The notes under the pieces: generated by a model
Database searches by the model: none
What the model was told of the DNA's origin: nothing
The model's input: only the letters and a program-made list of their open reading frames with translations
Made by a program: the position numbers and the translations under genes
Assembly: GCF_037042905.1 (NCBI RefSeq)
Contig: NC_087245.1
Coordinates: 14,634,001-14,698,000 of the forward strand
DNA from: Lytechinus pictus
Taxonomy: Eukaryota
Direction: 5' to 3'
DNA: 64,000 nt
Part shown: piece by piece, positions 19,238 to 49,014 of the stretch
Layout of the letters: each line of letters starts with the position of its first letter
How positions within the stretch are numbered: the stretch's first letter is position 1

Positions 19238-22178
19238 CCGAGTTTGTGATTGGCTAATCCGGAGGTGTGCTTGGTCATATGACTTTAAGTAATTGCAATA
19301 ATATTGACCAAGCTGCACCGACTGCTTGCCTGCCGTGAATGATATTCAGATATCAGAACCTTGTGAAAATGAAACAATGACGAAACATGATGGTTGAATA
19401 AAGTCTTCTCAATGCGATTGATTGTGAAATAGGCCTACTTGCTTTCCATTGAATTGGATATTTTCAAATAAAAAAGAAGGAACGAGGAAATGATCATTAT
19501 GTCATGTATGTGAACTTTTTTTCAAGATCAATGTTTTACCAACGGAAGTGATTTTTTCTAAAGATATTAACGGTAAAAAGAACGGTAATTAATATTCATC
19601 TATGGGGCAAATTCCATTTGTATAATTTTGCTTCTCGAAGGCTACTTTCCCAGCCTGTCCTTCATAATAAATATTTTGTTATAGTGAACCATATTTCATC
19701 TTTCTTTTAGTTTTTAGATAAAGTAAGCAGTCCTGAAAGTAAGAATACAATAACGAGGCTCTACTTGCTACTACTATCCACTAACAGGGAGTAAATTCAT
19801 TATTTTTGGAATGATAGACTTAGTGCATGACCAAAAACACATTGAAACGAGAAAGCGAAGTGATCGAGATGTTTTCATTTTTTATGTATTTGAAATCGAA
19901 ATGAAATGATCTGGTATATACATTTACGTCAACATTTACGAAGAAAATGAGGGGTGGAAATAATTATTGATTGTGTAGGGGAAATTACCACCAACACTCC
20001 CTCTCTCCCCCTCCCCCCCCCCCTGCGTAGGGTCATGACTTGTTTATTATTAGATGAACCTGATTCAATCGAGCATAATATGAATGTAATTGCGAATACA
20101 AGATGATCTTTAATATCAGTTACATAAAATGTTGAATTAGCATCTGTGTAAGATTTCATGTTTTAAAGTTACGATTGGGCTTCCGAATACAATGGACAAA
20201 GTTGAATTCAGTTTTTGTTTATCAAAAAAAATCATGAAAGTTTAAATTGGGTTATCGCATATTAATTAACGTAGTTTACAAATTGATAAAACCGATATTG
20301 TTGTATGATTGCAATAGGCAAACATTTTTATTATTTGGGATCTACCTCTTTGTAATATTTTATCGTCTGTAGGGGGTTTTCCCCAGATAATTATGTGTAT
20401 GGAGTGGTGTAGAACCAATACGGTTTTAAAGTATTTATCACTGTCTTTGTGGACATAAAATTTATAGACCTAAGTCCATTTATATCAAAGTGGATTACTG
20501 AATTTAACTCACAAGACATTACGATTGATATTTTCTTTGTATGTAAATAAAAATAACAAGAAGATTTCGTTTTTATGTCTGGTACATGAATTAAGTTATT
20601 TTTGTATTTTATTATACTAATAGGTCTCAGAGTGTTTCACGGTAACTTTCAATTTCACTTCTTCAAAACTATGAAAAGTGACGTATAAATTGTATATCAA
20701 TTTAATCAACTCTGCCAATGGTGCATCTCTTTCTCAAACATTTTTGTTTTACTATATGTACGTTCCTAATATTGCATTTACATGTCCCAAACTGTAATAA
20801 CGTCACAACTTTAATTGGCAGTTTTGGATATGTTTGTTTGCAATCCCTTTTCTAACCCGGTAAACGTACCAACAAGTAAGACATCGACATGATAGATTAT
20901 GACTTACAAGCATGATTTTATTTTATTATTTTTTTTTTTTTGGTCTGGGGAAAATGATATTGACAACACAATGAAGAAAAAATACCTTAATAACATATTT
21001 CTATTCTTACAAAAAGTATATATTTGTATTGAATATGATTTCTTTTTCATTATTTCTTATTTGTCTTGATGAGGATTATGACATTTTATGGTTTACAAGC
21101 TTGATTCTCTATATGAAATAAAACATGCCATTACAAAGGTGATATGAATCTTGTCTGTTCGTTATTATTTTTGTAATGAACAGAAGAAATGAACATTATT
21201 TTATCATTGCATCTCATACTTGTAGATTAGTTCCTCTTCTGTTTATTTCACATCATGTTTTGTTGTTTGTTGACGTTGTTGCTAAGAGAACCAACGATAA
21301 TATAAGCCAATCAGAATAATTAATCTATTTGTGGATCAATTATTTTCCTCACTTAATCACATTTCAGGGTTTTAAAGAAATCAACAGTAAGTTGTTGATT
21401 ACCGATCTCTAGATCAACGTGTAAAGAGTAGTACACCATTTCTGCATTTGATAATTAGTATGATTAGAGATTTATGATTAATGACAAACCCTTTTAATTT
21501 CTCCACGTCAAAAGAGCAGGCATTCTTTTGTATGTGCCAAATTATCGAGCTGAAGTCATTTCAGTACGCTTGAATTGGTGAGGGAAATGAAAGCCCATAG
21601 GATGAAAGTATTTATTCCATTGCGTTTCAAGGGATCCATTGAAACTGCACATTGCTAATCAAGTTTTTAATTCATTTGTGGCTCATTCAGTATGTTATGT
21701 TAGTTATTCATTTTACTTTAGGCAACATCGAGAGTTGACGCTTTGGCCCCTCATAGGAGGTCCATATAAGTTCATTTGCTCGATACAATGTCATCTACAC
21801 TTTTCATACTAAAGGGCCTACATGTTGCAGAAATTGAATGAATAATGTAGTATTATCGCGACAAAATACCTTTTTCTATCGGAAATCAAAATTATTTCGC
21901 AGCGTATTATACTCTCACCCATAGCTCTTTCCATTTCATTCATTGACAACATATCTATGACTATGACTTTGATTCTGTGAAGAATACTATAGTAAAGTTG
22001 TTACAGATCTAGTATAGGATTACACTTTACCACTACACGGTCAAAATGATGCACTGTTAGTCAGGAATCGAAGAGAATTTAAGCAGTTCAGGACCGAAGC
22101 TGACGTTCTTTGGGACATATTGCCTTTAAAGTGTGTCCTTCATTGTCTCTTGCTGCATGGATCCTAAATGATGACTCC

Positions 22179-22193
22179 ATGATGACTCTGAAT
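22179..22193 (+). CDS. Possible upstream exon end of the lectin gene (optional MMTLN extension)
   Basis: AAT|GTAAGT donor at 22194; ATG ATG ACT CTG AAT is in frame (phase 0) with the exon at 23124, which has its own acceptor. Confidence 0.3.
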
Positions 22194-23123
22194 GTAAGTA
22201 TTATATTTCCAATTCCACATGCTTTCTGTTGAATACTACAATTTATTTTCTTATTTTGTATCATTCCTTAAAAATATCGTAATTGAACTTTTTATTAATA
22301 AAAATTCCTCAGTATCTATATAATTCAAAGCTGAAAAAGAAATCGAGAATACCAGATTGAAATAAAGATTTATGAATACGTTTTTCCGAGCGTGGAAAGA
22401 AGAAATTTGATATCATTTCGGTTCATGATTTTCCCCTTTACAAAGACCACATTGAAAATAGCAAGTCCCTATTTATCTGAATAGAGTAAGATTTAAGTGA
22501 GCAAATCGATAAACATTTCCTCAAAATCTGATAAAGTAACGAAATTGTTGAATTTGTAAGAAATTTTATAGCAAAACTTTTTGAAAACAGTTACACACTG
22601 TCACGAACATGCAATACGTTTGGCTGATTGTTATTATGATGGAATGCTCAAATTTTCCCTTAATATCTTATTAATACATTAAATCGTCAATATTTCTTTT
22701 TTTATAAACATATTTTCTCTTTTGTATAAAAAACAAGTTACCACAATGATTATCAAACACATTAAATCAGCAGTGAAACATATCTTCATATTCTTGTAGA
22801 ACGACATCTTAATAAAATGTCATTAATAATATAATAACATTAAAAGAAAACGAATGAGATGGGATACGACACCATCATCTTACTGATAATCATTGTGTAT
22901 TCATGAAGATATGCTTCGAATTCGTTCACCGAAATAACAAAATAAAAAAACCTTTAAACATCATAAGTCTGTTTTTTTCTTATCCGATTTTAATGAATCT
23001 TCCAGTGTTTTGTTTGTCTGATTTCATTTGATCTATTCAAATCATTCATTAGGCTGAAGTACCACTTTCATCTGAAGGATATATCTCAAAGTTCAATTTT
23101 TTGCTTGTTCTCTGTTTATCCAG

Positions 23124-23190
23124 ATGTGGTATTTAGTAATCATCTTTATAGTCTTACAGCAAGTGAATGTTAGCGTCCAAAAATGTCAAA
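23124..23190 (+). CDS. Signal-peptide exon of C-type lectin/mucin/PAN protein
   Basis: Polypyrimidine CAG acceptor, MWYLVIIFIVLQQVNVSVQKCQ, A|GTAAGT donor; its phase 1 fits the CTLD exon at 42455. Confidence 0.65.
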
Positions 23191-23599: not shown

Positions 23600-24530
23600 G
23601 CCGGTTAAAAATAATCAGCAGCGCGCTGCCTGCATATAACTGGCGCCAATCAAGAATAATCAGCACCACCTAAATCTAAATCGGCGCCGGACAAGAATAA
23701 TCAGCGCCATCTGGTTATAAATTGGCGCCGGTAAAAAAAATCGGCGCTGCCTGAGTTCTTAACCAGCGCCGATCAAGGATAATCAGCGCCACCTATATCT
23801 AAATCGGGGCTGGTCAAGAATAATCAGCGCCATCTGGTTATAAATCGGCGCTGCCTGAGTCTTAACCGGCGCCGATCAAGAATAATCAGCTCCACCTAAA
23901 TCTAAATCGGCGCCGGACAAGAATAATCAGCGCCACCTATATCTAAATCGGGGCTGGTCAAGAATAATCAGCGCCATCTGGTTATAATCGGCGCTGCCAG
24001 GGTCTTAACCGGCGCCGATCAAGAATAATCAGCTCCACCTAAATCTAAATCGGCGCCGGGCAAGAATAATTGGCGCCATCTGGTTATAAATCGGCGCCGG
24101 TAAAGAAAAAGCGGCGCTGCCTGAGTTCTTAACCGGCGCCGATCAAGGATAATCAGCGCCACCTATATCTAAATCGGGGCTGGTCAAGAATAATCAGCAC
24201 CACCTGGTTAAAAATCGGCGCCAGTCAAGAATAATCGGCGCCTCCTGGTTCTAAATCGGCGGCAGTCGATTATAAATTACCGCTGCCGGAATCTTACGTG
24301 ACGTCGGTAAAAAGTAATCAGCACTATTTGTTCTAAATCGGCGCCGGTCAAGACAAATCGGTGCTGCCTTTGTCTTAACCGGCGCCACCTAAATTCAAAT
24401 CGGCGCCGGTCAAGAATAATCAGCGTCCCCTGGTTCCAATAAATAGGCGCCGGTAGAATAATGAAGAAGGACCTATTGCCAAGCAAATCTAGATCGGCGC
24501 CGGTCAAGAATGATCAGCGGCACCTGGTTA
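23600..24530. repeat. GC-rich minisatellite, ~21/42-bp modules with higher-order blocks
   Basis: Recurrent AAATCGGCGCCGGTCAAGAATAATCAGCGCCACCTGGTT variants. Confidence 0.85.
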
Positions 24531-26275: not shown

Positions 26276-27311
26276 TGTATATATATATATATATTAAAAG
26301 AAAAACTTGTATCTCAATTAATATACAAAAGTATTGGCCTCATCGCAATAAAAGGGTTAGTACACGAGATTTTGAAATCGCACATAACATGCATAATTTG
26401 TGTTACTTTTTGCTTGTTTCTTTCTTTAATAAGTTTTTCAATCTCTCTCTATATATGTTTTAGAAAGATTATAATTATGTTTAAATTGATGTATATTTTC
26501 TGTCATAATGAGATATGTTTGAGTGGACTTCAGGGAATGGTCGTACGCAGCAAGGGGGAAGGGGGGGGGGGGGGCAAATTCCCGATCAGCTGTTGTTAAA
26601 ACACATTTGTTTCCTTAACATTTCATGAAAACTATGAAAAATGTGCAAATGTGACATGTGCACCAAATACTTTTATTACACTTGTAAAAAAAAAAAATCG
26701 CCCCATTGAGCAGCTCGGTCCGTTTACTCTATCGTTTTTATTTTTTTTTTCAAAAGTATGTTCGAGTCTTGCCCCCCCCCCCCCCCGGAAATATTATCTG
26801 CGTGTGGTCATGCAAAATGGCATGACTGGAAATCCTACATTTTGAAAAGAGCATTTGACAGGGTCAGACTTTACCCCTTTTTCAACATTTTCTTTTATGG
26901 CGCCGGTGAAGTGCAAAAATATGTGCGCCGCTCGGCAGTGCGCCCCCCCCCCCCCTTTCGCCAAAAGCTGGATCCGCCTATGGTCGTTGCCCATGATGTG
27001 ACAGAAAAGAATTCGACATCCGTTTCTAAAACGGATTGTGAAACTCACCTTTGAAAGAAATCAATGCGCTATGATAGCGCGAAAAAGCATCGCGCCATCT
27101 CCATCTTCAACACATTGATATATTTTTTTAAAAGGTGAGTTTTACCATTCGTCTTTTAGCGCTTGTGTACAGATTGAGAGCTAGGGAGAGTAATAAAACA
27201 AGGGGAATATGAGGGAAAGTGACAAGAAAAAGAGTGAAATATGATATTATAAATTGAATACTACGTCAAACCTAGAACAAAATTAGATTTTCATTTCATA
27301 AACATGATAAA

Positions 27312-30300
27312 TATGAGGCGCCGAATGTACCAATATTATATAGAACAATTATTTGTTATATAATCATTATTTATTAAATAATAACTATTATTTATATATA
27401 ATTTACATTTTATTTGTAAATAACTACTATTATATAAAATATCATTTCTAATTATTTATATATAATTCCAAGTAATACTTCATTATTTGTAAATAATAAT
27501 AGTTCGACATTCCATTATTTATAAATAATGATTATTTGTTTTTCATTATTTATAAATAATGATTATTTGTTTTTCATTATTTATAAATAATGATTATTTG
27601 TTTTTCATTATTTACAAATAATGATTATTTGTTTTTCATTATTTACAAATAATGATTATTTGTTTTTCATTATTTATAAATAATGATTATTTGTTTTTCA
27701 TTATTTATAAATAATGATTATTTGTTTTTCATTATTTATAAATAATGACACTACATACTTCATTATTTATATATAATGATTATTTGTTTTTCATTATTTA
27801 TAAATAATGATTATTTGTTTTTCATTATTTATAAATAATGATTATTTGTTTTTCATTATTTATAAATAATGATTATTTGTTAAATAATGAAAACGTCTAC
27901 TTCATTATTTATAAATAATTTTTTCGAGTGCACCATTATTCTCATTATTTATAAATAATCATTATTTAATGTTCGAGTTTTCCATTATTTATAAATAAAG
28001 ATTATTTGTTAAATAATGAAATATCTACTTCATTATTTATAAATAATAATTTAGTTTCAATATCCCATTATTTATAAATAATCATTATTTATAAACAATT
28101 TTTACAGTTTGCCATTATATACAAATAATCATTATTTATATACAAATAACCATTATTTATTAAATAATGCCATTATTTATTAAATAATGCCATTATTTAT
28201 TAAATAATGGAAAACTCGCTATAACATGCAAATGTGGGACCGCCCATGTTATGAATATTCATGATGCGATTTCCTTTTTCGTGATTTTTCTTCACAAATT
28301 TTTGTCCATTTCCTCTTCATAATGACATTTCTTGAAGCAATTTTCTAGGGATATGGTCTGATTGTCATATTCTTCATTTTCTATATAACTTCGTCTTCGT
28401 AGAAATATCAAAAAGTGTAATTTTATACGATTTTTCCTACAGTTCACAATCCCCATAGGCGCGCGTGTATCGTAGGGACAATCGGTGAATCGACGGAGTG
28501 CTCTTCATCGAAATACTACGTTGGTTGGTCCCCGGAAGTGGCGGGCGGAATTTAGCCCGAATCCTCGATGGAAGTAGATCAAGTGCATATGAGCTGAGAG
28601 AGTGAAATATCAGTGCACAGGCCCTTCTACTTTTTATAAATATTTCTTGTTGCTTTTTTTGTTAAGTTAATTTTTCCTGGTGTAGAGATAAGTTTCAGTT
28701 CTAATAATGCACTTCAAATACATTTTGGAGTGTCTGTTTGAGGCGTTTGGGGCGATTTCACCCTGGCCCCAAAATGCTCGCAACGACAATACGGGGGCAT
28801 GATGACCCCTAAATTTTAAAAAACTTATTTTTCTATTGAAAATTATCACAAAATTCACCAAAAGTGTGCACGAAAGCCTTCGTATTTCACTTTTAAAACT
28901 CCAAAAAGTGCCCAAATGACAAGCTTGGTCGCTTCGCTGTGTCGCTTTCAACTTGAGAAAGTTTACGCGTCTGCTTCCCCCCCCCCCCCCCTCCTCCGAA
29001 AGAAATTCTGTATACGGCCATGCTCTAAAGAGCCTGGCACATTGATTTATGTATACTTTCATTTTCATTATTTTTATCTCATTATCATCATGGCCTTACG
29101 CAGAATTTTTTCCAGGGGGGCCGGGGCCGGAGCATGACGCGCGTAAACTTTCTCAAAAAAATCTTGAAAGCGAGACAGCCACGGGACCAAGCCCAAATGA
29201 CAAGCTTCGTCGCTTCGCTGTCTCGCTTTCAACTTGAGAACGTTTACACGCGTCTGCCCCCACCCCCCGAAAGAAATTCTGTGAACGGCCATGCTCAAAA
29301 GAGCATATGGCACATTGATTTATATGTACTTTTCATTTTCATAATTTTTATCACATTATCATCATGGCCTTACACAGAATTTTTACCGGGGGGGGGGGGA
29401 GCAGCTAGGACGCGCGTAAAGTTTCTCCAAAAAATCTTGAAAGCGAGACAGCGACGCGACCAAGCTCAAATGACAAGCTTGGTCGCTTCGCTTTTTCAAG
29501 ATTTTTATGAGAAAGTTTATGCGCGTCCTGCTACCCCCCGGAAAAAATTATGCGTAAGGCCATGATAATGAGATAAAAATAATGAAAATGAAGTACACAT
29601 AAATCAATGTGCCAGGCTCTTTAGAGCATGGCCGTATACAGAATTTCTTTCGGAGGAGGGGGGGGGGGGGGGAAGCAGACGCGTAAACTTTCTCAAGTTG
29701 AAAGCGACACAGCGAAGCGACCAAGCCCCCCAAGCTTGTCATTTGGGCACTTTTTGGAGTTTTAAAAGTGAAATACGAAGGCTTTCGTGCACACTTTTGG
29801 TGAATTTTGTGATAATTTTCAATAGAAAAATAGGTTTTTAAAAATTTAGGGGTCATCATGCCCCCGTATTGTCGTTGCGAGCATTTTGGGGCCAGCTAGG
29901 TGAAATCGCCCCAAACGCCTCAAACAGACACTCCAAAATGTATTTGAAGTGCATTATTAGAACTGAAACTTATCTCTACACCAGGAAAAATTAACTTAAC
30001 AAAAAAAGCAACAAGAAATATTTATAAAAAGTAGAAGGGCCTGTACACTGATATTTCACTCTCTCAGCTCATATGCACTTGATCTACTTCCATCGAGGAT
30101 TCGGGCTAAATTCCGCCCGCCACTTCCGGGGACCAACCAACGTAGTATTTCGATGAAGAGCACTCCGTCGATTCACCGGTTGTCCCTACGATACACGCGC
30201 GCCTATGGGGATTGTGAACTGTAGGAAAAATCGTATAAAATTACACGTTTTGATATTTCTACGAAGACGGAGTTATATAGAAAATGAAGAATATTACAAT

Positions 30301-31402
30301 CAGACCATATCCCTAGAAAATTGCTTCAAGAAATGTCATTATGAAGAGGAAATGGACAGAAATTTGTGAAGAAAAATCACGAAAAAGGAAATCGCATCAT
30401 GAATATTCATATCATGGGCGGTCCCACATTTGCATGTTATAGCGAGTTTTCCATTATTTAATAAATAATGGTTATTTGTATATAAATAATAATTATTTGT
30501 ATATAATGGCAAACTGTAAAAATTGTTTATAAATAATGATTATTTATAAATAATGGGATATTGAAACTAAATTATTATTTATAAATAATGAAGTAGATAT
30601 TTCATTATTTAACAAATAATCTTTATTTATAAATAATGGAAAACTCGAACATTAAATAATGATTATTTATAAATAATGAGAATAATGGTGCACTCGAAAA
30701 AATTATTTATAAATAATGAAGTAGACGTTTTCATTATTTAACAAATAATCATTATTTATAAATAATGAAAAACAAATAATCATTATTTATAAATAATGAA
30801 AAACAAATAATCATTATTTATAAATAATGAAAAACAAATAATCATTATATATAAATAATGAAGTATGTAGTGTCATTATTTATAAATAATGAAAAACAAA
30901 TAATCATTATTTATAAATAATGAAAAACAAATAATCATTATTTATAAATAATGAAAAACAAATAATCATTATTTATAAATAATGAAAAACAAATAATCAT
31001 TATTTATAAATAATGAAAAACAAATAATCATTATTTGTAAATAATGAAAAACAAATAATCATTATTTATAAATAATGAAAAACAAATAATCATTATTTGT
31101 AAATAATGAAAAACAAATAATCATTATTTATAAATAATGAAAAACAAATAATCATTATTTATAAATAATGAAAAACAAATAATCATTATTTATAAATAAT
31201 GGAATGTCGAACTATTATTATTTACAAATAATGAAGTATTACTTGGAATTATATATAAATAATTAGAAATGATATTTTATATAATAGTAGTTATTTACAA
31301 ATAAAATGTAAATTATATATAAATAATAGTTATTATTTAATAAATAATGATTATATAACAAATAATTGTTCTATATAATATTGGTACATTCGGCGCCTCA
31401 TA
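27312..31402. mobile_element. 4.1-kb foldback (palindromic) non-autonomous DNA transposon, IS3EU-like ends
   Basis: Arms of about 1.85 kb are near-identical inverted copies; ends TATGAGGCGCCG / CGGCGCCTCATA; exact 6-bp TSD GATAAA (27306-27311, 31403-31408); 31-bp tandem arrays in each arm; no transposase ORF. Confidence 0.9.
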
Positions 31403-33052
31403 GATAAAGGCCAAAAAAAAAGAAATATTCCGACTAACGCCATGTTTGCCCCCCAAAAATTGCTCATTAGGGCAGTAACTCATAAGCCCCCTTACAAAAA
31501 TGTCCTGTGGTAATACCATATAATTACCATAGGACTGTACCACACGATTACCACATATATTGTTGTGTGGTAATGCTATGTCTTTATGTCCTGTGGTATT
31601 GTGTGGTAATGTGTGGTAATGTCGTGTGGTATTGTCCTGTGGTAAATTGGAACATTTACCACACAACATTACCACAGGAATACCACATGAATGGATTAAT
31701 ATATGGTAACATTTACCACACAAGGGATTAATTTATGGTAACAATTTTTACCACATACCATTTACCACACGACATTTACCACACCATTTACCACACACCA
31801 GTTACGACATGCATTACCACACACCATTTACCACACAAATTACCTCACATTTTACCACACACCAGTTACCACACGCGTTACCACACATCATTTACCACAC
31901 GAATTACCTCATATTTTACCACACGCCTTACCACACAAATTACCTCACATTTTACCACACACCGGTTACCACACGCGTTACCACACATAATTTACCACAC
32001 AAATTACCTCATATTTTACCACATGCCTTACCACACAAATTACGTCACATTTTACCACACACCGGTTACCACATGCATTACTACACACGATTTACCACAC
32101 ACGTTACCACATACACTACCACACACCAGTTACGTAACTGGTGTGTGGTAATGCATGTGGTAACTGGTGTGTGGTAAAATATGAGGTAATTCGTGTGGTA
32201 AATGGTGTGTGGTAAACACTAACCAGTTACCACACATATTGTACATAATACACATAATACCATGCATCAGAGTCATTACCCAAAATGTGTGTGGTAACTA
32301 GATGTGTGATAACTGATGCATGATAATGTATGTTGCAACTGGTGTGTTGCAATGTGTGTGGTAACTGGTTAGATACATCACAGATCATGGGTATGATTTT
32401 GGTAGCAGTAGAATGTGTTCATGACCCTATGTACTTTTATAAGATTAAGAAAATACAACACCTTCAATGAACAGACAACAAATGATTTTACAAGTGATAT
32501 AGAAAGTACTGGTATTTAGCTCATAGAGTCATCAATTTACAATACTGGTTTAGATTTGCTATTGACAAAAATTGTGTAACAGCTGCTTTACTGTACAAAC
32601 AGTGTAACATAATAGTAACTATCAAAGAAATTAGTTACAGTGCATATAAATACTTTTAAAAAAGATACATTTCTTCTAAATACTTTAAAAAGTTACCTCA
32701 AAGGTTATCTGGCTTTTCAGCAAACCAAATTAACGACCATTGTAGTTTTTTTGCAGGTCACACATACAGAATGGACTGATTTACTCTTTGTTTTATGCTT
32801 AAAGACAAAAATGATTAAACTCTTAATCGTTTTTAAGAAAATGAACAAAACATAAGGATGTGTCTACAATAGGTAATATATAAGTAGCTGCGGCAAAGTG
32901 CACTGTACTCAAAATTGCGTATAACAAAATGCATAATTATCCCAAGTTTACTTCAAGGCTGAAGGGCAAGTAGAAATAGACGAGAGATGATAATATGTAT
33001 TTGGAGAAAATGAAAACTAGGACAATACCCTGGCATGTAATATCTGAATTAA

Positions 33053-33774
33053 AGGAAAATAACACCCAAAACATAATACCACATGATATTATTGATAAAT
33101 ACAGGACAATCAACATGAATCCACTCATACCCTAATCCAATTACGGAGTACCACCTTTTCAAAGTTGGCCTCTTACAGTATGGTTCGAAGTTTCTGGATG
33201 GAGGTCGCCATTTTCGCGGGGTTAGTTAGGAAATTATTACATCAGCGACGAACTACATCTCTAAACGTTCAGGCATTATATATTCTATTTTATTAATAAC
33301 AAATCAAATGTACAGATAAAACTCATAAAAATATTAGTTAAAATTTGTTTAATATATGGTAGGTTCAAAATACAATTTGATGAGTTTTAATGATAAGATT
33401 TACACCCCAATTTCCGCTGCCAATTTGTAAATCGTAGATTAGGGTGTAATTTTTATCATTAAAACTCATCAAGTCGTAATTTGAACCTATCATATAATAT
33501 TAAACAAATTTTAATTAATATTTTATGAGTTTTATCTGTACATTTGATTTATTATCGATGAAATAGAATATATAATGCCCAAACGTTTAGAGATGTAGTT
33601 CATCGCTGACGGAATAATCCCCATCCATAGACTTTGTACCAGAAGATGCCAACTTTGAAAAGGTGGTACTCCATACTGGGACATCGGATTGGGGGTATAT
33701 GAGTGGATTCGTTTTCATTGTCCTGTATTTATCAATGGTATCATGTGGTATTATATTTTGGGTTTTATTTTCCT
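33053..33774. mobile_element. Kolobok/T2-like palindromic MITE
   Basis: TTAA|AGGAAAATAA...TTATTTTCCT|TTAA; inverted similarity runs nearly to the centre (~33415). Confidence 0.8.
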
Positions 33775-33854
33775 TTAAGATATTGTACTGGTTTATATCA
33801 TGGCATTACAAAGTTCATCTGTAGTGCACACTGTGTCAAGTGCACAAACCTATT

Positions 33855-34145
33855 CATGGTTCCCACAGAAATTTGAAAACAGAATTCCATGACCTCTCCA
33901 TGACTAAATTGCTGCTTTCCATGACTTAATTCCTTTCTGGCACAGTTTACAAAATCAGACATGTTATGATCATGAACACCAATTATAATAGTAGAGTACA
34001 ATCACAGAGTATGAGAGTTGTGAGACATAAAAAACTAGAAAGCTGTCATAGCCAAGAGGTAAATGCAATTCCATGACTTTTCACATATCCCTGACTTTCC
34101 ATGACCAATTTTTTTCCAGGATTTTCCATGACTGTGGGAACCCTG
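33855..34145. mobile_element. hAT-like MITE
   Basis: CATGGTTCCCACAG / CTGTGGGAACCCTG ends; internal TTCCATGAC repeats. Confidence 0.6.
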
Positions 34146-35629
34146 TAATAATACTGCATTGACAGAGCTCTATCATTTTAAAAGTTAATTTCAATTTCCT
34201 TCAAACATTTTATTCATCTCTTTTTGGTTGGACCTTGAATATAATACAATACAATGTTTTGGCAGGTCGTCTATAAAAGCATGTACATCGTTAAAAAAGG
34301 CTTTTGGCAGGAACTTTTGGCAAGTAGTCAACAGTATCAATGCATGTAAATTTGGGTGAAAGAATCATACATGTACATTAATTCTTAAGAAAAGTTTGTG
34401 GTTGTATTACACTATCACTTAAACGTATTAAAAAGACAGCAGTTGCAGCAAACAATTATTTCATGAGAAATTGTCAAAATATTGTACATAATCTCTAGAT
34501 CTGGTACATTAATGTAAGCTTGTATTTTTGTAAAATCACTAATTTTGAACTTAAAATTAATTATTTTGATGATCACTAACACAGAAAAGAACATGTGGGA
34601 CAGGACAGTGTATTATGATTGATTTGAAAAATACCTGACATTGGATAGAATTACATGCTTATTTTGCTCATTTCTCAGCAATTACACATTTTCTTCCCGA
34701 GCTATAATTAATTATGGCACATGTCTTTTATACTTTGCTGGTAATTCTATTGGATTCTGTTCGAACTCATTTTAAGATTGTTACTACAACTGGTAATTTA
34801 TCTTTAAAGTTGTACTTGTATATGATACGGGCTCAACATAATCTAAAATAAAGTAATTTTTACCATGCAAAATAGTGAAAATTTTATCAAAATCAGATAA
34901 AATTAAAAAAAAAATAATTACAAAAATATTGGTCATCAACACATGCAAGTAGATACATGTAAGTTTATGATATCATGCCCACATTTTTATTGTTCTCATG
35001 TTACCAGATAAAATAATAATTTACTTCATGTGTGTAATAAGTATGTCTTCCAATCCCATGTAGCGAAAGAACTTCCAGCAATAATCAATACAGGTAAGTC
35101 ACATCAATACAGTTTACAATCCGATTTGTTTCATTCTTGGTAAACAAAATTAAATGCACAATTTTATATACAAAATAATAAGTTGGGGATACGTGTACAT
35201 GTACAATGTACGTCAGTATGACATCATCAGCTTGCTACTTGCATATATGCTTAGAGCTCTTTCACCAAAATAATGCAGAGGTTAGAATGTCATACATTAC
35301 TTTATCATCCCTTGTCTAATTTGGATGAATTGAGACGCCATCCTACTGTAGTCAGCACATGAGATTTTAAAAAATTCAAATTACCAGGCAGTGACAGTAT
35401 TGTTGTAGGTACAGAGCAAAGATCAGGAATATAGTAGGTCTTCTCAAATTGTATTTGGATTGATCCAAGGTTGTTGACAACTGGAGGAGAGGAAGGAGCT
35501 AATTCCATGGCCTTGGAGCAGTAGTGGAGAAAGTTGCATCACCAGTAGCTAATTTGTAGGTGCGTAATGATCACAAAAATAAAAAGGCAAGTGCGCCTAG
35601 AATAAAAATGACGCACAAGGGATTCCTTA

Positions 35630-35868
35630 TAATACATGTAATCTGGATCTCTGTCATTGACTTTGAAAATCAGGAGACGGACACTGATGTTCATGTATAT
35701 CCTTTCCTTGACTTGCAGCCAGCGAAGTTGGCGTATGGCAAATGGCACAATAGATGCAGCATTCTGTACTATCTGCAGTCAGTCCAGATCGCCCTAATTC
35801 AAGCACGAAGAGCATTACAATAGTCCAGTTTAGATTGCGCTAAACCATGGACTGCTTTGTGGCAAGTA
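35630..35868 (-). pseudogene. Decayed L2-clade LINE ORF2 C-terminal fragment
   Basis: Minus-strand translation with frameshifts: VHGLAQSKLDYCNAL...LQIVQNAA...IRQLRWLQVKERI...LLIFK, resembling L2 SRLDYCN / LQxVQNAAAR / LHWLPV. Confidence 0.7.
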
Positions 35869-37400
35869 GAAATATAAAAGGCACTTCCCATTGGCCTTTA
35901 TTCTTCCAATCTGTTTGATGTTATACTGGTAGGGAGCAGGTTCCAATAGCACTATGAAAGGAGTTACGAAACCAGATAAAAGGGTGCAGATTCAGGACAC
36001 CTTCCATTTCAACTTAAGGCATCTGCAATAAATAACAGAAGAAGATAAACATAAAAGCCTTTCCTGCATTAACTATTTAATATTCATTAAAAACTACATG
36101 GTTTCAATATCAATTTCCAAACTTTTTAAAAAATGATTAAAAAACAATGTGGGGTTTGTTCCATATTTATACTTCAAATATTAACATGTAAAGTCAGGTC
36201 GGGGGAGGGGGGCTTGATGCCCTCAAGATCTGCTGCACCTCCAAACCATCTCTGTATAGGGAAGGACATTTTAAAGTTTAAAAAAAAAATATTTATTTTA
36301 ATTAAACATGATTTTAATTCATGCTTTTTTTAAATGTGTTTTAAATGGTTATGGGATAATTCCATCAGTTTGAATAAGAAATTACAAGTTGCCAATTTCA
36401 CATAACGAAGATCAATTCTGATGTGATAATAAATGCATGTCAGATGTTGATGTTTCACTTATGCCTATCTAATACGTTTGAATTGACAACAGCATGAACC
36501 TTGTAAGGGCATTAATTATTAGACAAGCTTTGTATCAGAGTGGTTACAAAATCAAAATTATTTAACTGCATCTCATGTTCATGCACATGTAAATAATCAA
36601 AATAACACAATAATTATAAAAAATACCTTCCACAAAGGATAAATTTGTACACACCATTATATCTGCATGAATATTGTTCTTTTAGTCCACCTATAATGAT
36701 ACAGCTGATGAGAGTTTGAATGATGGTATCAAGATGGTGCTTCTACCAGGGCTGCAAAAGAGAGAAAAAAAAAAAATGTTAACCTCAATCATGCCAAGAA
36801 ATCATGCCAACCGTTGTGAAACTCTATTAGCGCCAAATTACACTCTAAACTTGTCATTAGAACGTCCAAACCGATACACGTCAGCCAGGAATCTAGTACT
36901 AGCACAATCAGCTATGCATTTGCACCAATTCCCTCTGTATTTTCTTGCATATGGACGTCTCTCGACTTAAAGGTCATGTCATTGTGTTATATAGCTTGGG
37001 AATTGCAAGCAAGTGATCCTTCGAAATGTTTACCTGCTTAAAAGTAACATTTCTTAAGCCTTAATTTTGTATATTTAGATAACAAAAGGCTTACAAATTG
37101 GAAAAATCAAATGTTTGCCCAAAATTATTGTGGGAAAGGTGGATTTTTTAAGGGAAATCCATCTTTGTGTACCAAGTTCTACAGGCAACAGAGACTTGTC
37201 TAGCTCCGTGAATGAAAATACCCCTTGTACAATGTAAAAATGATAAAAATATCATCACAGAGTCCTCTAAGTACAGTTAGGACCATTGACAGATAAGGTG
37301 CCCTAAGATTGCGCACATCCGAATCTGCGCGATTCTGATAATGGAAGATACGCAACGACTCCAAACAAAAAATAAACTTTACACCTGAAAGAGCCTACTG

Positions 37401-39425: not shown

Positions 39426-39452
39426 AGCCTGTCGCCGCCCCCCCCCCCCCCC

Positions 39453-42454: not shown

Positions 42455-42829
42455 CAAGTGAATATGAGTCAGAGCAACATGGGGATTCGTGCTATTTCTT
42501 TAGGTCACTTGAAAGGTCCTTTCATGATGCGGAAACAGAATGTTCCAACTATGACTTTCATCTGGTCTACATACAGAGTGAGGACGAACAGAATTACATT
42601 GAGCGCCTAATGAATGACCACGATGCCCTGTACTGCTGGATCGGGCTAACCCTCGACGATAATGGAACAGCGGTTTGGATGGATGGGTCCAGTCTCACCT
42701 ACCAAAACACAGATCACAACAGCCACGATCAAGGACTGGAATGTCTCCGCATAAGCAAATATGAAGAGTATACATGGCAGGACACTGATTGTTCTATAAG
42801 ATATCAATATACTTGCGAAAAAGAAATTG
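42455..42829 (+). CDS. C-type lectin domain exon
   Basis: TTTTCAG acceptor, G|GTAATT donor (phase 1-1); SCYFF...FHDAETEC...HLVYIQSEDEQNYI...WIGL...WMDGS...EC...WQDTDC...YTCEK. Confidence 0.92.
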
Positions 42830-43261
42830 GTAATTTTCTTTCAGTAGCTCATAATACATTAATTTTTATGAATAATTTTGTTTTTCAAAAATATTTATGC
42901 GGGTAGATGTTCCATGTATTAGTTTGGAAAAATCATTTGGTGATGTTAGTGGCCCGGTTAGTGCATGATAACCAATACTGTTATGCCTCACGGCCAAAAC
43001 CAGCAACCTACAATAGGCTCAATGGTCATTTTCGGTGTCAAAGCATTCAATGCCATATGACAGAAGATTAGGAACCGATTTTCAGATTTGGTCATTCTAG
43101 CGGATTGTTAGATTCAGTAATGTCTGTCAACCAATCATGTCATTTCGGATTTATGAAAATGCCGACAAATTATACTTTGAAAAGTGCAATTAAGAAAGCT
43201 TTTATGTTAATGATTATGCATTCACAAGTCACGTAAATCACTTTGTTTAAATACGGATATA

Positions 43262-43974
43262 AGACCCCTGTTACACATACGTTTGCAAGTGGACTGAGGC
43301 CGGCCCCGGAGGCGGCTCGACGTATGTGTAACATCAACTTTTTTTGAAAAGCCGGACTGAGGCCAGGTGGACTCAGTCCACCTCTGGATGTGGTTTGAGG
43401 CCGGCCCGAGTCCGGACTCAGTCCCGCAATCGGTAGGTGTAACACCAAAGTGGACTCGGCGCCGGCTTATAAGCGGAAGTGACGCGACCTGTCATCATCA
43501 ACAATGCATCGGCCGGGCGCGCTTTTGCCATTTGGACCAGGCATGCAGTATATATTATAGGTAAGCCTCGCCCCGAGCTTCAAACTCCCGGAATCGCCTT
43601 TTTTGAGCACGTCGAAATTCCCTCCTTCGATCAGAAATAATAGTTACGATATTCTTAACCTTCATAATGCAATTATATAAACAAAATATGGAGGTAAGAT
43701 ATGTGTACGGATCGGTCGCGATGTCGATGAGATCCAATGCAATTAAAAAGACCTGCAAACCGCGCGAAAATATTAAGCGTTTGTTTACATGAAGTGCGCC
43801 CCAACGTCAGCTCGTGAAAAGGCGACGTGAGGCCGGCCTATGTGTAGACGCAAAATTGCGGGCCCGAGACTATGTGTAACAGGGGTTTGATGATTTTGAG
43901 GCGGCTTCAAATTGCAGGCGTGAGGCCGCCTCCGGGGCCGGCTTTGAAAGCCGACGCATGTGTAACAGGGGTCT
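43262..43974. mobile_element. Non-autonomous DNA transposon (PIF/Harbinger-like or TA-TSD type)
   Basis: TIRs AGACCCCTGTTACACAT / ATGTGTAACAGGGGTCT flanked by TA/TA (or TAA/TTA if ends are one base shorter); GC-rich subterminal repeats. Confidence 0.8.
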
Positions 43975-44482
43975 TAGGCTTTGCATGGTGTCAAGTTGGT
44001 ACGAAAAAAAATGAATCAAGTTTTAACGAAAATCCATCACAAACAGAGTCCCCCTTTTTTTAATGTAGAGTTATGACGACGTAAAATGAATAACTGACCA
44101 TGTAATTATCGGGATCATTATGTAATGTAGTAAATAAATTCAAAGAATGTCAGTTCGTTATTTTTCATGATCATTGAAATTATTTTCCTCATATCATCTG
44201 TGAAAAATATCATTAGATTAAAGGAATATAAATTTCCGAGATAATCTTTTAATGGAATTTTTATCGAAAGACATAATATGCGGCTGATCGCATGTGACGT
44301 AACAAAATTAATTTCTAGTATTTAAAATGTCATAAGTCTTATTGTTTGTTGGATTTTCATGAAACCTTGTTGTGTTTTGTTTTGGTTCTTTTTATACATT
44401 TTTTAATGTTTATTGAGACTAACTTTTTGGTGTCATGGTTAATTGCCCTTTGTGTCCACTTTGGATGTTATATGAATAACAG

Positions 44483-44626
44483 AATGCTCAACAACAGCCG
44501 GATCAACTGAGCCAGTGACGACAGCATCTACAACTCAGCTACCTAATACACAGACTTCAATCAGGCCGTCGACAACTACACTGGCAGCAACAATCACCGC
44601 AGCTACCACGTCGGCAACACGTAGAG
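44483..44626 (+). CDS. Thr/Ser-rich mucin-like exon, copy 1
   Basis: CAG acceptor, G|GTAAT donor, 144 nt, phase 1-1; CSTTAGSTEPVTTASTTQLPNTQTSIRPSTTTLAATITAATTSATRR. Confidence 0.8.
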
Positions 44627-44809
44627 GTAATAGCGATTTGCTCCGGGGGTTGTCCTTATTTATATTCTTCCAAGATCTCATACATTACTTATAAGTTGAT
44701 ATATTTGGACAAAAATGCCCTTATTGATTGGTAATCTACACGATGCGGCATCCAGATTTCTCTTCACAAGAACAAGGCAACGAGTACACTTTATTTTTTT
44801 TTAATTTAA

Positions 44810-44982
44810 GCACGTTGTTTAAGCCCGTCACTCTAACAACCATACTGGTTAAACTTTTGAACAACTGTTTAAAACTTTTTAAACAAGTTGTTTAAAAAGT
44901 TTAAACAGGTTGTTTAAAAAGTTAAAACAATTACAATAAAGTTTAAACAATTTTTTTAGAGTGACAGGCTTAAACAACTTGC
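44810..44982. mobile_element. Short hairpin MITE
   Basis: GTTGTTTAAGCCCGTCACTCTA / TAGAGTGACAGGCTTAAACAAC inverted pair. Confidence 0.65.
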
Positions 44983-45271
44983 TATTCCTTTAACAGTGTA
45001 ATAATCCTGCACGCTGAACCAAATAGAACTAGTAGTAGTAGTAGTAGTAGTATAGTAGTAGTAGTAGTTGTAAATGTACTATATTCAACATAACGACTAA
45101 TTTCAAACGCTGCGTATACCCCGGCTTTAGCACGGCTAACCTTATCCATGTTATCGTGTGCTCGAGCATTCAAGAAATAATTCTTAGATTGAGTAATTCA
45201 ATTTCCGAGAATTTTTTTTTCATGGAATTTCTATTGCCCTTTGTGTCTACTTTGGATTTTATTTCAAACAG

Positions 45272-45415
45272 AGAGTTCAACAGCAACTGGATCAACTGAG
45301 CCGGTGACGGCAGCATCTACAAGTCAGCCACTTGATACACAGACTTCATTAAGGCCGACGACGACAACACTGGCAGCAACAATCACTGCAACTACCACGT
45401 CGGTAACACGTAGAG
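45272..45415 (+). CDS. Thr/Ser-rich mucin-like exon, copy 2
   Basis: 144 nt, phase 1-1; SSTATGSTEPVTAASTSQPLDTQTSLRPTTTTLAATITATTTSVTRR; paralogous to 44483-44626. Confidence 0.8.
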
Positions 45416-45615
45416 GTAATGGCGATTTGCTCCGGGGTTTGTTCTTATATTCTTCCTGCTATACAAGAGCATATACATGAAGTATAAATTATGATATTTG
45501 GATAAAAATTGCCTTTATTGAGTAGTAGCCTACACGATGTGGCATTTAGATTTCCCTTGCACAAGAACAAGTTACTACCTTCTCGCGAAACTAAATAGAA
45601 TTAGTAATAGTACAT

Positions 45616-45651
45616 GTAGTAGTAGTAGTAGTAGTCATGGTAGTAGTAGTA

Positions 45652-45709
<58 letters not shown>

Positions 45710-45758
45710 AAGTAGTAATAGTAGTAGTAGTAGTAGTAGTCGTTGTAGTATGTAGTAG
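45616..45758. repeat. (TAG)n microsatellite
   Basis: Read directly; abuts the retrotransposon 3' end. Confidence 0.95.
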
Positions 45759-45759
45759 T

Positions 45760-48258
45760 TGTTATATATCACTTTATTTGCAAATCTGCACATTAAAGGA
45801 ATACAATATACGCCCAGGACATTTCTCTATAATGAGAAAATGCAGGGCAATAAAATTCACTATACAGAAAAAAAAACTTAGAATATAATACAACAATCAA
45901 TATGGAGAAAAATACTGGGAAGTGCAACGAGGTTAGCATTTCTCTATAATGAGAAAATGCAGGGTAATAAAATTCAATATACAGAAAAAAAACTTAGAAT
46001 ATAATACAACAATCGATATGGAGAAAAGTACTGGGAAGTGCAACGAGGTTAGCCAAGGGAAGGAAAATGGAGTCCGTCTATGTACTTGAAACACGGAGAG
46101 GGAGTTTGTTTTCCCACATATTCAGTTTTTTTGAGTAATAAATGACAAAAGATGACACGATGGCCAATTTTGATATATTCTTTCGGAATTGTTTGAGATG
46201 GACGGGACTCCCAGTTTCCTTCAGCAGCCGCTTTAGCCTCGTTGCATTGTCCGGTGAGATGTGGCCTCGAGAGCCGATTTCCAAAGGAAGGAATAACACT
46301 GAATATCGATTGTTTTCTATATCTGTGACTAGGGGGGCGTACTTGTTTGATTTGAACTCATGTGCATTGGATATATTCATTTCAAAAGGGACTGATAATT
46401 CGAGTATGAGAAGTTTCTTTGTGTTCCTCCAAAAAATGCAGATATCTGGTATGAGATTTGTTTGAGTGCATTCTAGTGGTATGGTATATATTCCTTCCTT
46501 TGTCCATCGCCCTTCCTTAAGATCTGTGTACATAATAATTTCCACGAATGACTTTATGCCTTCTTGAATAGATTCGGCCAAATACAATAAGATGTTGTCA
46601 TGACGCCAAGTGTAGCGCCCTTCGTCAAGTAATATAGGGCATGCATTTAGCACATGATGTACTGTTTCTCTATTTTGACATCTATTATAATTTGCTGAAG
46701 ACATTTCCCCCCAGCGAGATAGATTTGCATTTGTATTGAGTGTATCCGAAAGGGAATTCATGAGAAACTTAGCAACTTAATTGGTAGATTATAAATCAAA
46801 CTTTTCCAATCCGCAGATTTTGATTCCATGCTTGCCAATTCAAAAAACTTGCCTTGTACTGAAAGTGATTGGACATGAAGAAGCCAATCTTGTGATCTTT
46901 TTTTGTAGTTGAGAATCTTTAACCTGCTTTTTCAATTTTGGGAGTGTGACATTCGTATCTGGAAGCGATTTAAAGACATTATTACTGTTCACAACTGTTG
47001 ACTTTTTTCTTGTCCACTGAGATTCTCTTTCAAGGGCAACATCTAAGCAATGGTTAACTTTAGCATCCCACGTTGCTCTTATTCTAGTATAATTCTGAGT
47101 TTGAGCTTCGTAATAGAGATCTGAAATGTTGGGTATATTTAGACATTCTGACATATGAAGGAAAGCCAAAGTGGCTGGTCTCGCAAGGCCAGACCACTTT
47201 TTTAGATATCGATTACACAATGCATCTAGTGACTTTAAGTGGGTTTCGGTAAGTTCATTGACTGTAAGGTGGAATCTCAGTGATGGCAGAAAATAGTCAG
47301 CAAATACCTTCAGCTTGTATTCATCACGAATTAAAGCCTTTTCAATGTTTTGGATACCTCTTTCAATAATTGATTTTACATATTGAAATATATCATCTGA
47401 TGAGTTGTCATATGTCACAAACGAGCCTAGGAATTTAAACTCTTCCGTTTTCAGGGTTTCGAGCTCAATATTATCCAATTGAAATTTCAAATCAGTTGGG
47501 GAACCTCCTGATATTGAAAGGGTTCTACATTTTTTCTGTTTTAATTTCAACCCGAGTGACAAAATACGAGAAGAGATTGTAATCATGAGCCGTTGATGGG
47601 TTTTTTTATTTCCTGTTATTAAACAAAAGTCATCTGCAAATGGTGCAGTGATGAACTTTTGACCATCTACTCATATCCGAATCGGCTATTCTCTGAGAGA
47701 GTTTCAATTAATGGATTAAAACAAAGGAGAAAATTATTGGTGATAAAGGATCTCCCTGAAATATACCATTTCTAAAATGAAACTGCTGGGAATTCCAATC
47801 CTTGGTTGAAACAAAGCCGTCAAGGGAAGAGTACAGATTCGTGACATAGTCAGTGATAGGTTTAGGAATCTTATTACGATCAAGACTAAATTTGATAAGG
47901 TCATGTGGTACTGAACCAAAAGCATCTTCCAGATCAAACCAAGTGAAATGTGCAGTTTTACGGGATTTTTTTGTATGTTTGATAATTTCATGTACCACTG
48001 TATTGTGATCAAGACAGCCAGATATACCATGCAAAAATCCCTTCTGAATAGTACGGTCTATATATTCATTCTCTGTTACAAAACATTCAATTCTATAGCA
48101 AGTATTTGATGAAATATTTTGCCAGTCGTGTTTGATAGTGCTATCATTCTAAAATTCTCTGGGAGATTTGTATCGCCCCTCTTATGTATCAATGATACTC
48201 TACTACGAGACCAAGATTGTGGGGGGACTGGGTTTCTTAGTATTTTACTATAGAGGGT
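45760..48258 (-). mobile_element. 5'-truncated, frameshifted RLE-type non-LTR retrotransposon (HERO-like)
   Basis: RT motifs ENFRMIAL, WFDLEDAFGSVPH, GIFQGDPLSP, FADD; degenerate CCHC knuckle ETVHHVLNAC; RYTWRHDNIL; PD...ELSVPFE...K..KY; LEIGSRG; AATAAA near the 3' end. Confidence 0.9.
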
Positions 48259-48328
48259 AGTAGTAGTAGTAGTAGTAGTAGTAATAGTAATAGTAAAAGT
48301 AGTAGAAGAAGTAGTAGTAGTAGTAGTA

Positions 48329-48400
<72 letters not shown>

Positions 48401-48424
48401 ATAGTAGTAGTAGTAGTAGTAGTA
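48258..48424. repeat. (TAG)n microsatellite
   Basis: Read directly; abuts the retrotransposon 5' truncation point. Confidence 0.95.
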
Positions 48425-48772
48425 GAGTGGGTTAATTCTGGGACAGGTGCAACTGCCCCACGGAAATAAAAGGACGGGTATAAGCCTTCCCCTTTCTTTT
48501 ATTTCCGTGGACCGCCCGGGCGCGCCCCTGTGAATTTTCAAAACATTACATCCAATTATCCTCTCGCCAACCTATGTATTAGTTTATGACTATAAATTAC
48601 TTTAAATTCTGGAACTTAGCATAGGTCCTATAGTTTGAAAATATGTTGGTGATAATGACAAAAAGGGGGATGATATCGACGATGGTAAAACTTATGATAC
48701 CTAACTTATGTCAGAATAATACGAGATGACCCATGAATCGAATTGTTTTAGTTATCACAATGTCGTTTTCAG

Positions 48773-49014
48773 GTGATCTGACGTCGTCTTGGTATGAACT
48801 CATCGCTCAGAACGAAAGAATCAAAGAATGGAACATCATCGAGCGACACACGGCGTCGACGGTGATACGGTGTGCGGACCTGTGTTCGACCACGGAGTCG
48901 TGCTCGTGCTTTACATTCATCGCCGACGATGTTGATTGTCTCCTTGGGGAATATGATCCCAGAGACGGCTATATGAACAATCATCCTGGAGCCACCACAT
49001 TTGTGACAATTTAG
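48773..49014 (+). CDS. Terminal exon, PAN/apple-like domain
   Basis: TTTTCAG acceptor, phase 1; STVIRCADLCSTTESCSCFTF...DCLLG shows the C-x3-C-x5-C-x2-F-x-F...C-x-L PAN pattern; TAG stop. Confidence 0.8.

What the first reader, a model, noticed from the sequence alone, without database searches (positions are those of the whole stretch)
27312..31402. 4.1-kb foldback element with TAY..RTA ends and 6-bp TSD
Seen: two ~1.85-kb inverted arms around a ~0.3-kb spacer, exact GATAAA duplication, an outer tandem-repeat domain plus inner unique domain, and few arm differences. Known: this modular layout recalls Drosophila FB and sea-urchin TU foldback elements; TAY..RTA ends with a 6-bp TSD are the described signature of the little-studied IS3EU superfamily. 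Inference: a young IS3EU-mobilised foldback family. In an intron it could form a ~1.8-kb dsRNA stem in the lectin pre-mRNA (ADAR or endo-siRNA substrate).
Basis: partly seen in the sequence, partly recalled or inferred. Interest (0 to 1): 0.72.

Follow-up and report, generated by a model that had tools for sequence, protein, structure and literature searches.

The report
Edited foldback transposon in sea urchin
This is a real 4.1-kb gene-less jumping element made of two mirror-image arms, probably sitting in an intron of a sea-urchin lectin gene; its ends point to the little-studied IS3EU transposon group and RNA of its family carries the marks of A-to-I editing, so it is an instructive variant of a known kind of element, not a new kind.

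Summary
Observation confirmed. Window 27312-31402 has TAT..ATA ends, an exact GATAAA duplication (chance 3-6e-4) and about 1.8-kb arms differing by 12 substitutions and 6 indels, around a core of palindromic MITE-like units. It has no transposase. An assembly artefact is very unlikely, though no spanning read was tested.

The ends and 6-bp TSD fit IS3EU/GingerRoot as published. Membership is not proven: one copy, no genome, no partner; hAT6 also makes 6-bp TSDs.

New here: in two stranded RNA runs laid on the inner arm, A>G occurs only in one read orientation and T>C only in the other (10 of 11 sites without DNA support). This is the A-to-I editing signature. It rests on few molecules from other individuals and is family-level, not locus-level.

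A signal-peptide-like exon at 23124-23190 fits in phase with the lectin exon at 42455, which would place the element in a 19-kb intron (inferred). A gene exon match names Lytechinus pictus. The insertion is young, but the family is diverse and also held by another organism label.

The scan already noted several IS3EU-ended foldbacks elsewhere in this genome (unchecked notes). Verdict: new variant of a known kind.

The parts
27306..27311 (+). left target-site duplication GATAAA
   Evidence: chance 3-6e-4
27312..31402 (.). whole non-autonomous foldback element, 4091 bp, TAT..ATA ends
   Evidence: two ORFs of the element tested against Pfam gave no hit above a family cut-off; no Rfam hit inside it
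27312..27478 (+). left terminal domain, 167 bp, identical to the right one
   Evidence: 167 of 167 identical
27479..28209 (+). left outer domain: AT-rich array of a 31-bp unit with the 18-bp palindrome CATTATTTATAAATAATG; 7 units in the first block, then degenerate 129-bp and 20-bp repeats; candidate transposase-binding sites (inference)
28210..28911 (+). left inner non-tandem domain; contiguous in DNA contigs of run X1; RNA of the family shows strand-locked A>G/T>C changes here
28912..29088 (+). half of a palindromic MITE-like unit (M0) plus 66-bp spacer S1; innermost part of the 99% arm
29089..29564 (.). centre: unit M1 (29089-29293), spacer S2, unit M2 (29363-29564) whose right half is an inverted left-type half; symmetry switch point near 29465-29495
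   Evidence: M1-specific letters in RNA loose ends
29565..29746 (-). mirror of S1 and M0 half
   Evidence: 61 of 62 and 110 of 110 aligned letters identical
29747..30451 (-). right inner domain
30452..31235 (-). right outer domain: 10 units in the first block, one 20-bp unit instead of three
31236..31402 (-). right terminal domain
31403..31408 (+). right target-site duplication GATAAA
23124..23190 (+). candidate upstream exon of the host lectin gene: 22 hydrophobic-rich residues ending in a Cys-Gln, consensus acceptor, GTAAGT donor in phase 1 (inferred, not annotated)
42455..49011 (+). host gene exons: C-type lectin domain exon 42455-42829 (phase 1 start), two Ser/Thr-rich exons, last coding exon; coding part from 42610 identical to P0001

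Best explanation
A non-autonomous foldback DNA transposon, most likely moved in trans by an IS3EU/GingerRoot DDE transposase. Step 1 (inferred): one end of a parent element (terminus, palindrome array, inner sequence, short array of palindromic MITE-like units) was duplicated head-to-head, with the switch inside a palindromic unit (M2). Step 2 (TSD shown, enzyme inferred): the symmetrical element was inserted with a 6-nt staggered cut, giving GATAAA on both sides. The 18-bp palindromes probably serve as extra transposase-binding sites (inferred by analogy with Galileo). Step 3 (shown): the arms have since drifted by about 1% inside, and by gain or loss of tandem units. Step 4 (shown for the family, inferred for this locus): passenger transcription through both arms, here probably in a 19-kb intron of a secreted C-type-lectin gene, makes a long hairpin that ADAR edits. 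It is selfish DNA; no host function is shown.
For: Exact termini and TSD. IS3EU families 'always' have TA..TA ends and usually 6-bp TSDs; GingerRoot is the same lineage (PMC10045372 section 3.3; PMC6839031 passages). Fungal IS3EU end TAYGG..CCRTA (PMC12730594 passages); ours matches 4 of those 5 letters. The arm is contiguous in independent DNA contigs from 28190 to 28938, and those contigs carry the right-arm letter at four left-arm-private sites, so the arms differ as real copies do. RNA: 81 and 42 reads in about 6% of two runs, in both orientations. Changes by kind: X23 A>G 9, T>C 9, each other kind 0-2; X24 A>G 6, T>C 7, each other kind 0-2. At shown sites without DNA support, T>C stands in 25 of 41 first-mate-plus reads and 0 of 19 first-mate-minus reads; A>G in 26 of 35 minus and 0 of 21 plus reads. 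Two loose-end consensus strings of 30 letters differ from the window only by 4 A>G and by 6 T>C (one search compared by eye). The inner 1.3 kb folds into one long stem. Exon phases fit.
Against: Single copy; no genome was held, so TSD length and ends of other copies and any autonomous partner are untested. hAT6 also makes 6-bp TSDs. The fifth terminal letter differs from the fungal IS3EU motif. No read or contig spans the element or its junctions; only 28190-29100 was laid. RNA and DNA runs come from different samples and organism labels. Each site rests on 2-4 read starts per run and mates are counted twice, so the read-level P values (2e-6, 2e-8) are inflated; site-level 10 of 11 gives P=0.012. 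13 rows of the difference table were not shown. Many reads come from other copies: 5 of 10 and 2 of 3 reads carry an insertion at 28615 that neither arm has, no read shows the left-arm letter at 28249, and reads with the repeated 20-bp unit run outward although this copy's right arm lacks the repeat. The upstream lectin exon is not in the public protein model; 5 such exon patterns occur in the window, 2 of them plus-strand phase 1.
Confidence: 0.62

Rival explanations
1. Same foldback, but mobilised by a hAT6-type (6-bp TSD) or another DDE transposase.
For: hAT6 families with 6-bp TSDs exist and sit among animal hAT families (PMC12730594 passage). Arrays of subterminal binding motifs are typical of hAT elements (recalled).
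Against: hAT ends usually read (C/T)A(A/G) (recalled, no call); here the third letter is T, as in TAY. Unchecked scan notes report IS3EU elements, one with a transposase, in this genome.
Confidence: 0.12
2. An ordinary asymmetric IS3EU copy inserted first and was turned into a palindrome in place (template switch or conversion that replaced one end and the genes by a copy of the other end). The foldback form never jumped.
For: The switch point lies in a palindromic unit and the innermost 100 bp pair at only about 90%. Both arms share two differences from the main contigs of run X1: a missing 6 bp at 28615-28616 and A at 28576. The outer arm is more alike than the inner (2 of 838 against 10 of 895 substitutions, P=0.04), which hints at arm-to-arm copying.
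Against: Shared differences also fit a subfamily. M1-type centre letters occur in RNA of other individuals, which fits more copies with this centre but could be alleles of this locus. Unchecked notes report about thirty copies of another IS3EU-ended palindrome family in this genome.
Confidence: 0.15
3. A TA-targeting element (Tc1/mariner or Harbinger/ISL2EU type) spanning 27314-31400, inserted at a TA that happened to lie between two GATAAA words.
For: The parse TA|TGAGG..CCTCA|TA is formally possible.
Against: It needs a 3-6e-4 coincidence. TGAGG is not the usual CAG start of Tc1/mariner (recalled). The flank comparison found no second copy of the target in the window to decide it.
Confidence: 0.04
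4. The RNA differences are alleles or paralogous copies, not editing.
For: No DNA of the same animals; many paralogues exist (278 contigs laid from run X14). Two of the A>G/T>C rows occur in both orientations (28369, 28470), and 28741 has a disfavoured 5' G.
Against: Paralogous variation should give G>A and C>T as often and should not follow read orientation. G>A and C>T are 0-1 per run against 6-9 for A>G and T>C, and 10 sites are orientation-locked in the direction ADAR predicts. 8 of these 10 have U or A 5' of the edited A, counting the consensus letter at 28366; that fits the preference in PMC9989829 but is weak in AT-rich DNA.
Confidence: 0.06
5. Assembly artefact (fold-back chimera of one arm).
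For: No record spans the structure in the data I could lay (one search covered one arm only).
Against: The arms differ at 18 places, with private letters on both arms relative to independent contigs. The centre is asymmetric. The sequence returns to different flanks with an exact 6-bp duplication.
Confidence: 0.02

Closest known systems
[quoted passage not shown]
   Same: TA..TA (here TAT..ATA) termini, 6-bp TSD, terminal inverted repeats.
   Different: Described members have TIRs of 100-150 bp (GingerRoot) or over 30 bp (fungal IS3EU) around internal sequence. Here nearly the whole element is TIR (about 1.8 kb per arm), with a palindrome array and no gene. The TSD is AT-rich, whereas GingerRoot TSDs lean GC-rich.
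Foldback elements: Tetris of Drosophila virilis (PMC4079207, passages), Tm1 of Meloidogyne (PMC3169594, passages); Drosophila FB, Galileo and sea-urchin TU (named in those passages; details recalled, primary papers not seen)
   Same: Long modular TIRs (flanking domain, tandem outer domain with variable unit number, inner domain), small non-coding middle, no ORF. Tetris TIRs reach 1735 bp.
   Different: These have 8-10-bp TSDs and are mostly assigned to Mutator (exceptions noted). This one has a 6-bp TSD and TAY..RTA ends. No sequence comparison with TU elements was possible.
ADAR hyper-editing of young inverted repeats in metazoans (PMC9989829, PMC5625713; passages)
   Same: Clustered A>G in weakly expressed RNA from a young repeat; 86% of editing sites in Strongylocentrotus purpuratus lie in repeats; palindromic DNA transposons need no second copy.
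   Different: Nothing in kind; only the substrate family is new.

Membership tests
IS3EU/GingerRoot | TA..TA termini | tested here: met
   TAT..ATA against PMC10045372 section 3.3
IS3EU/GingerRoot | 6-bp TSD | tested here: met
   GATAAA on both sides of this one copy
IS3EU/GingerRoot | 6-bp TSD of varying sequence across several copies | not testable with these tools
   no genome held; no second copy in the window; viral scan 0 hits, metagenome scan 2 chance hits
IS3EU/GingerRoot | TAYGG..CCRTA end motif of rust-fungal members | tested here: inconclusive
   TATGA: 4 of 5 letters; the motif is stated only for fungal families
IS3EU/GingerRoot | integrase-like DDE transposase of this lineage, in the element or in a partner with the same ends | not testable with these tools
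   the element has three stop-free frames of 100 aa or more on repeat-derived sequence plus their mirror; the two tested gave no Pfam hit above cut-off; partner search needs the genome
Foldback (structural class) | long modular TIRs with tandem outer domain and non-tandem inner domain | tested here: met
   against the description in PMC4079207
Foldback (structural class) | tandem unit number varies between arms; small non-coding middle | tested here: met
   7 against 10 units of 31 bp, 3 against 1 unit of 20 bp; core about 270 bp
Mutator/FB-type foldbacks (Tetris, Tm1) | 8-10-bp TSD | tested here: not met
   the duplication is 6 bp and cannot be extended
Polinton/Maverick | 6-bp TSD with AG-starting termini | tested here: not met
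   ends start TA; PMC6839031 passage
hAT6 | 6-bp TSD | tested here: met
hAT6 | hAT-type termini and hAT transposase partner | tested here: inconclusive
   hAT end consensus only recalled; hAT6 termini not seen in any paper read; no partner search possible
ADAR-edited repeat | excess, strand-consistent A-to-G in RNA, absent from DNA | tested here: met
   family level, DNA from other samples
ADAR-edited repeat | matched DNA of the same individual; reads assignable to this locus | not testable with these tools
   runs are from different samples; several reads carry non-local variants

The most novel reading that the evidence does not exclude
In this sea urchin, IS3EU/GingerRoot transposons repeatedly spawn foldback families by head-to-head doubling of one end at internal palindromic repeats. 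The 18-bp palindrome array marks the still undescribed DNA-binding site of an IS3EU transposase. The resulting kilobase hairpins are regular ADAR substrates, and this copy is a polymorphic intronic insertion that changes processing of an immune-type lectin pre-mRNA.
Probability: 0.22. Interest if true: 0.62.

Novelty: new variant of a known kind. Interest (0 to 1): 0.4.

Why it matters
Foldback architecture in print is tied mostly to Mutator and P-type elements (PMC4079207 passages). A search for 'foldback' with 'IS3EU' found 1 paper, which does not link them; the library lacks most subscription journals and Repbase reports. An IS3EU-ended foldback supports the idea that the foldback form arises independently in many superfamilies, and it offers a concrete candidate binding motif for a transposase group with little biochemistry. 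It also gives a tractable sea-urchin model a defined, edited 1.8-kb dsRNA substrate for work on self-dsRNA control. Each part has a precedent, and no host function is shown, so the interest is moderate.

Tried and rejected
Whole-genome search: no genome held. Terminal 19-mer in viral contigs: 0 hits. In metagenome contigs: 2 hits, both limited to 19-20 bp in unrelated, apparently prokaryotic DNA without inverted ends, so chance. Look-ups of earlier findings by sequence and by relatives: nothing. Run search: 20 of 24 listed rows hold the inner domain in part, 11 with half the words or more; no RNA holder listed on record, which is no evidence either way. Promoter idea: the inner domain is CpG-rich and has CCGGAAGT and GGGCGG words near 28532-28548 (motif names ETS and Sp1 recalled), but no start or end pile-up and no splice joint appeared in RNA, at depth too low to exclude a weak promoter; not supported. 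Coding potential: six-frame translation of the inner arm is closed. Rfam: only a tRNA at 60128, nothing in the element. Searches for a full-length lectin relative to confirm the upstream exon found only P0001 and a distant fish protein. Comparing each flank with the window to reconstruct the target gave no useful second copy. Contig depth was not used as copy number. Rows left out of the editing count: 28470 (paired with a C>G change, both orientations; also reported included), 28369, 28482 and 28576 (seen in DNA contigs), and rows with changes in X14 only. Sea-urchin TU primary papers were not in the library. No supplements were read; Repbase entries and the GingerRoot supplement may hold animal IS3EU ends that bear on membership.

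Full report
Observation. The element is at 27312-31402 (4091 bp), between two copies of GATAAA, and its inverted repeat ends exactly at these positions. The chance of such a flanking match is 3.4e-4 to 5.7e-4. The arms pair at about 99% over 27312-29088 and 29565-31402, with 12 substitutions and 6 indels; about 100 bp more pair at about 90% around a non-mirrored core of about 270 bp.

Anatomy. From each end inward there are four parts. First, 167 bp that are identical in both arms. Second, an AT-rich array of a 31-bp unit built on the palindrome CATTATTTATAAATAATG; all 21 exact copies in the window are in the element, and the first block has 7 units on the left and 10 on the right. Third, a 700-bp non-tandem domain without an open frame of note. 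Fourth, an array of palindromic units of about 205 bp (CATGGCC..GGCCATG) with 66-69-bp spacers. The last unit, M2, ends in an inverted left-type half, so the symmetry switches inside a palindrome. The two element ORFs I tested gave no Pfam hit above cut-off, and Rfam has nothing here.

Is it real? I could not lay reads across the element; only 28190-29100 was laid. There, contigs of DNA run X1 cover 28190-28938 in three overlapping pieces. They carry the right-arm letter at four sites where the left arm differs (28249, 28366, 28482, 28818) and show no change at the right-arm-private sites among the rows listed. Each arm thus has its own few private changes against an independent consensus. With the TSD and the asymmetric core, this makes an assembly fold-back very unlikely. 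Both arms also share two differences from the main X1 contigs (6 bp missing at 28615-28616; A at 28576), so they descend from one arm or were copied onto each other. The outer part is more alike than the inner (2 of 838 against 10 of 895; P=0.04), a weak hint of arm conversion. In run X14, under another organism label, 278 contigs lie on the stretch (51 at 99% or more, 82 at 95-99%, 145 at 90-95%; many sit on a very high-copy repeat near 28840-28900). The insertion is young, but the family is older and diverse.

Which transposase? IS3EU families in Repbase always have TA..TA ends and usually 6-bp TSDs, and form one lineage with GingerRoot (PMC10045372, section 3.3 read; PMC6839031, passages). 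Rust-fungal members end TAYGG..CCRTA (PMC12730594, passages); this element reads TATGA. Polinton (AG ends) and Mutator-type foldbacks (8-10-bp TSD; PMC4079207 and PMC3169594, passages) do not fit. hAT6 also makes 6-bp TSDs and is not excluded; that hAT ends usually differ at the third letter is recalled. No genome was held, and scans of viral and metagenome contigs gave 0 hits and 2 chance hits, so other copies and a partner are untested. Unchecked notes of this scan describe an IS3EU element with a transposase and four IS3EU-ended gene-poor or palindromic elements elsewhere in this genome; none shares words with this element in the look-ups. I put IS3EU mobilisation at about 0.7. 'Works like IS3EU' is better supported than 'is a proven member'.

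Host context. The lectin exon at 42455-42829 (Pfam Lectin_C) and three later exons match P0001, labelled LOC135153564 of Lytechinus pictus, letter for letter. That model begins at an internal Met and has no signal peptide, although the exon starts at a splice acceptor in phase 1. At 23124-23190 there is a 67-bp stretch with a consensus acceptor, an ATG, a hydrophobic run and a GTAAGT donor in phase 1. Five such patterns occur in the window, two of them plus-strand phase 1; this one has the highest hydrophobicity of the two and lies outside the neighbouring transposon. If it is the first coding exon, the element lies in a 19.3-kb intron. This is inference (about 0.65). A FAM167-family gene ends at 19237, upstream.

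RNA. Two stranded, rRNA-depleted runs of organism C, about 6% read, gave 81 and 42 reads (roughly 10 and 6 per kb per million), in both orientations, with no start or end pile-ups. Read-through of both arms would give this pattern. A>G and T>C dominate the differences (9 and 9; 6 and 7; other kinds 0-2 each). At the shown sites with no DNA support, T>C occurs only in first-mate-plus reads (25 of 41 against 0 of 19) and A>G only in first-mate-minus reads (26 of 35 against 0 of 21). One further site, 28470, breaks the rule and looks allelic, giving 10 of 11 sites, P=0.012. Both classes are A-to-G on the RNA under the usual library convention. Two loose ends are hyper-edited versions of window sequence (4 A>G and 6 T>C in 30 letters, by eye). 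Limits: 2-4 read starts per site and run, mates counted twice, 13 rows hidden, no matched DNA, and clear signs that many reads come from other copies or alleles. Reads from the non-mirrored M1 unit are biased to plus-strand RNA (depth about 15 against 4 in X23, 9 against 3-5 in X24), the lectin's direction, which fits but does not prove this locus. Editing of young repeats is the rule in metazoans, including a sea urchin (PMC9989829 and PMC5625713, passages).

Mechanism. Inferred: head-to-head doubling of one end at a palindromic unit; trans-mobilisation by an IS3EU transposase that binds the termini and probably the palindrome array, as tandem TIR repeats of Galileo bind its transposase (PMC4079207 passage). 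Shown: 6-bp duplication, arm drift, unit-number change, edited RNA of the family. Not shown: mobility of the foldback form itself, polymorphism, small RNAs, any effect on the lectin.

Novelty. Foldbacks, IS3EU and repeat editing are each known. Their combination was not found in the library: 'foldback' with 'IS3EU' gave 1 paper without a link, and sea-urchin foldback searches gave only the Tetris paper and an unrelated one. The scan itself has noted the same combination several times in this genome. I rate it a new variant of a known kind, interest 0.40.

Noticed in passing
window 31489-42082: A 10.6-kb element with CCCTTAC..GTAAGGG ends, a 2-bp CC duplication and TTACCAC-rich subterminal arrays starts 80 bp right of the foldback; EnSpm/CACTA-like by recalled end signature. 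It holds a promoter-like stretch near 39200-39430 on the minus strand, LINE-like remnants near 35350-36020 (recognised by eye) and a palindromic MITE near 33100-33740.
   Followed up: partly
window 56365-60979: A 4.6-kb element with TGT..ACA ends, arms of at least 270 bp with 18-bp subrepeats and a 5-bp GGGGC duplication; this fits Ginger2/TDD (4-5-bp TSD in PMC10045372). It contains a tRNA-like match at 60128-60213.
   Followed up: partly
window 29727-29741 (right arm): A 9-bp insertion in the right arm reads as a 6-bp duplication around GGG; it could be an excision footprint or a slippage product.
   Followed up: no
window 23124-23190 and about 22040-22196: Probable unannotated 5' exons of the lectin gene LOC135153564; the public protein model lacks a signal peptide and the first 51 residues of the lectin-domain exon.
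   Followed up: partly
window 10834-11358 and 18960-19237: Two plus-strand coding stretches of a probable FAM167-family gene; only the second has the Pfam hit.
   Followed up: partly
window 23642-24353: A GC-rich array of a 41-bp unit full of GGCGCC words, 80 bp after the candidate lectin exon's intron starts its first MITE; boundaries not studied.
   Followed up: no
window 46078-48498 and 53093-55096: Broken reverse-transcriptase frames of two non-LTR retrotransposons; the first lies in a lectin intron (identified by eye).
   Followed up: no
window 28841-28902: In run X14 this 60-bp stretch attracts contigs of very high depth, so part of the 'unique' inner domain is a high-copy repeat in that organism.
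   Followed up: no
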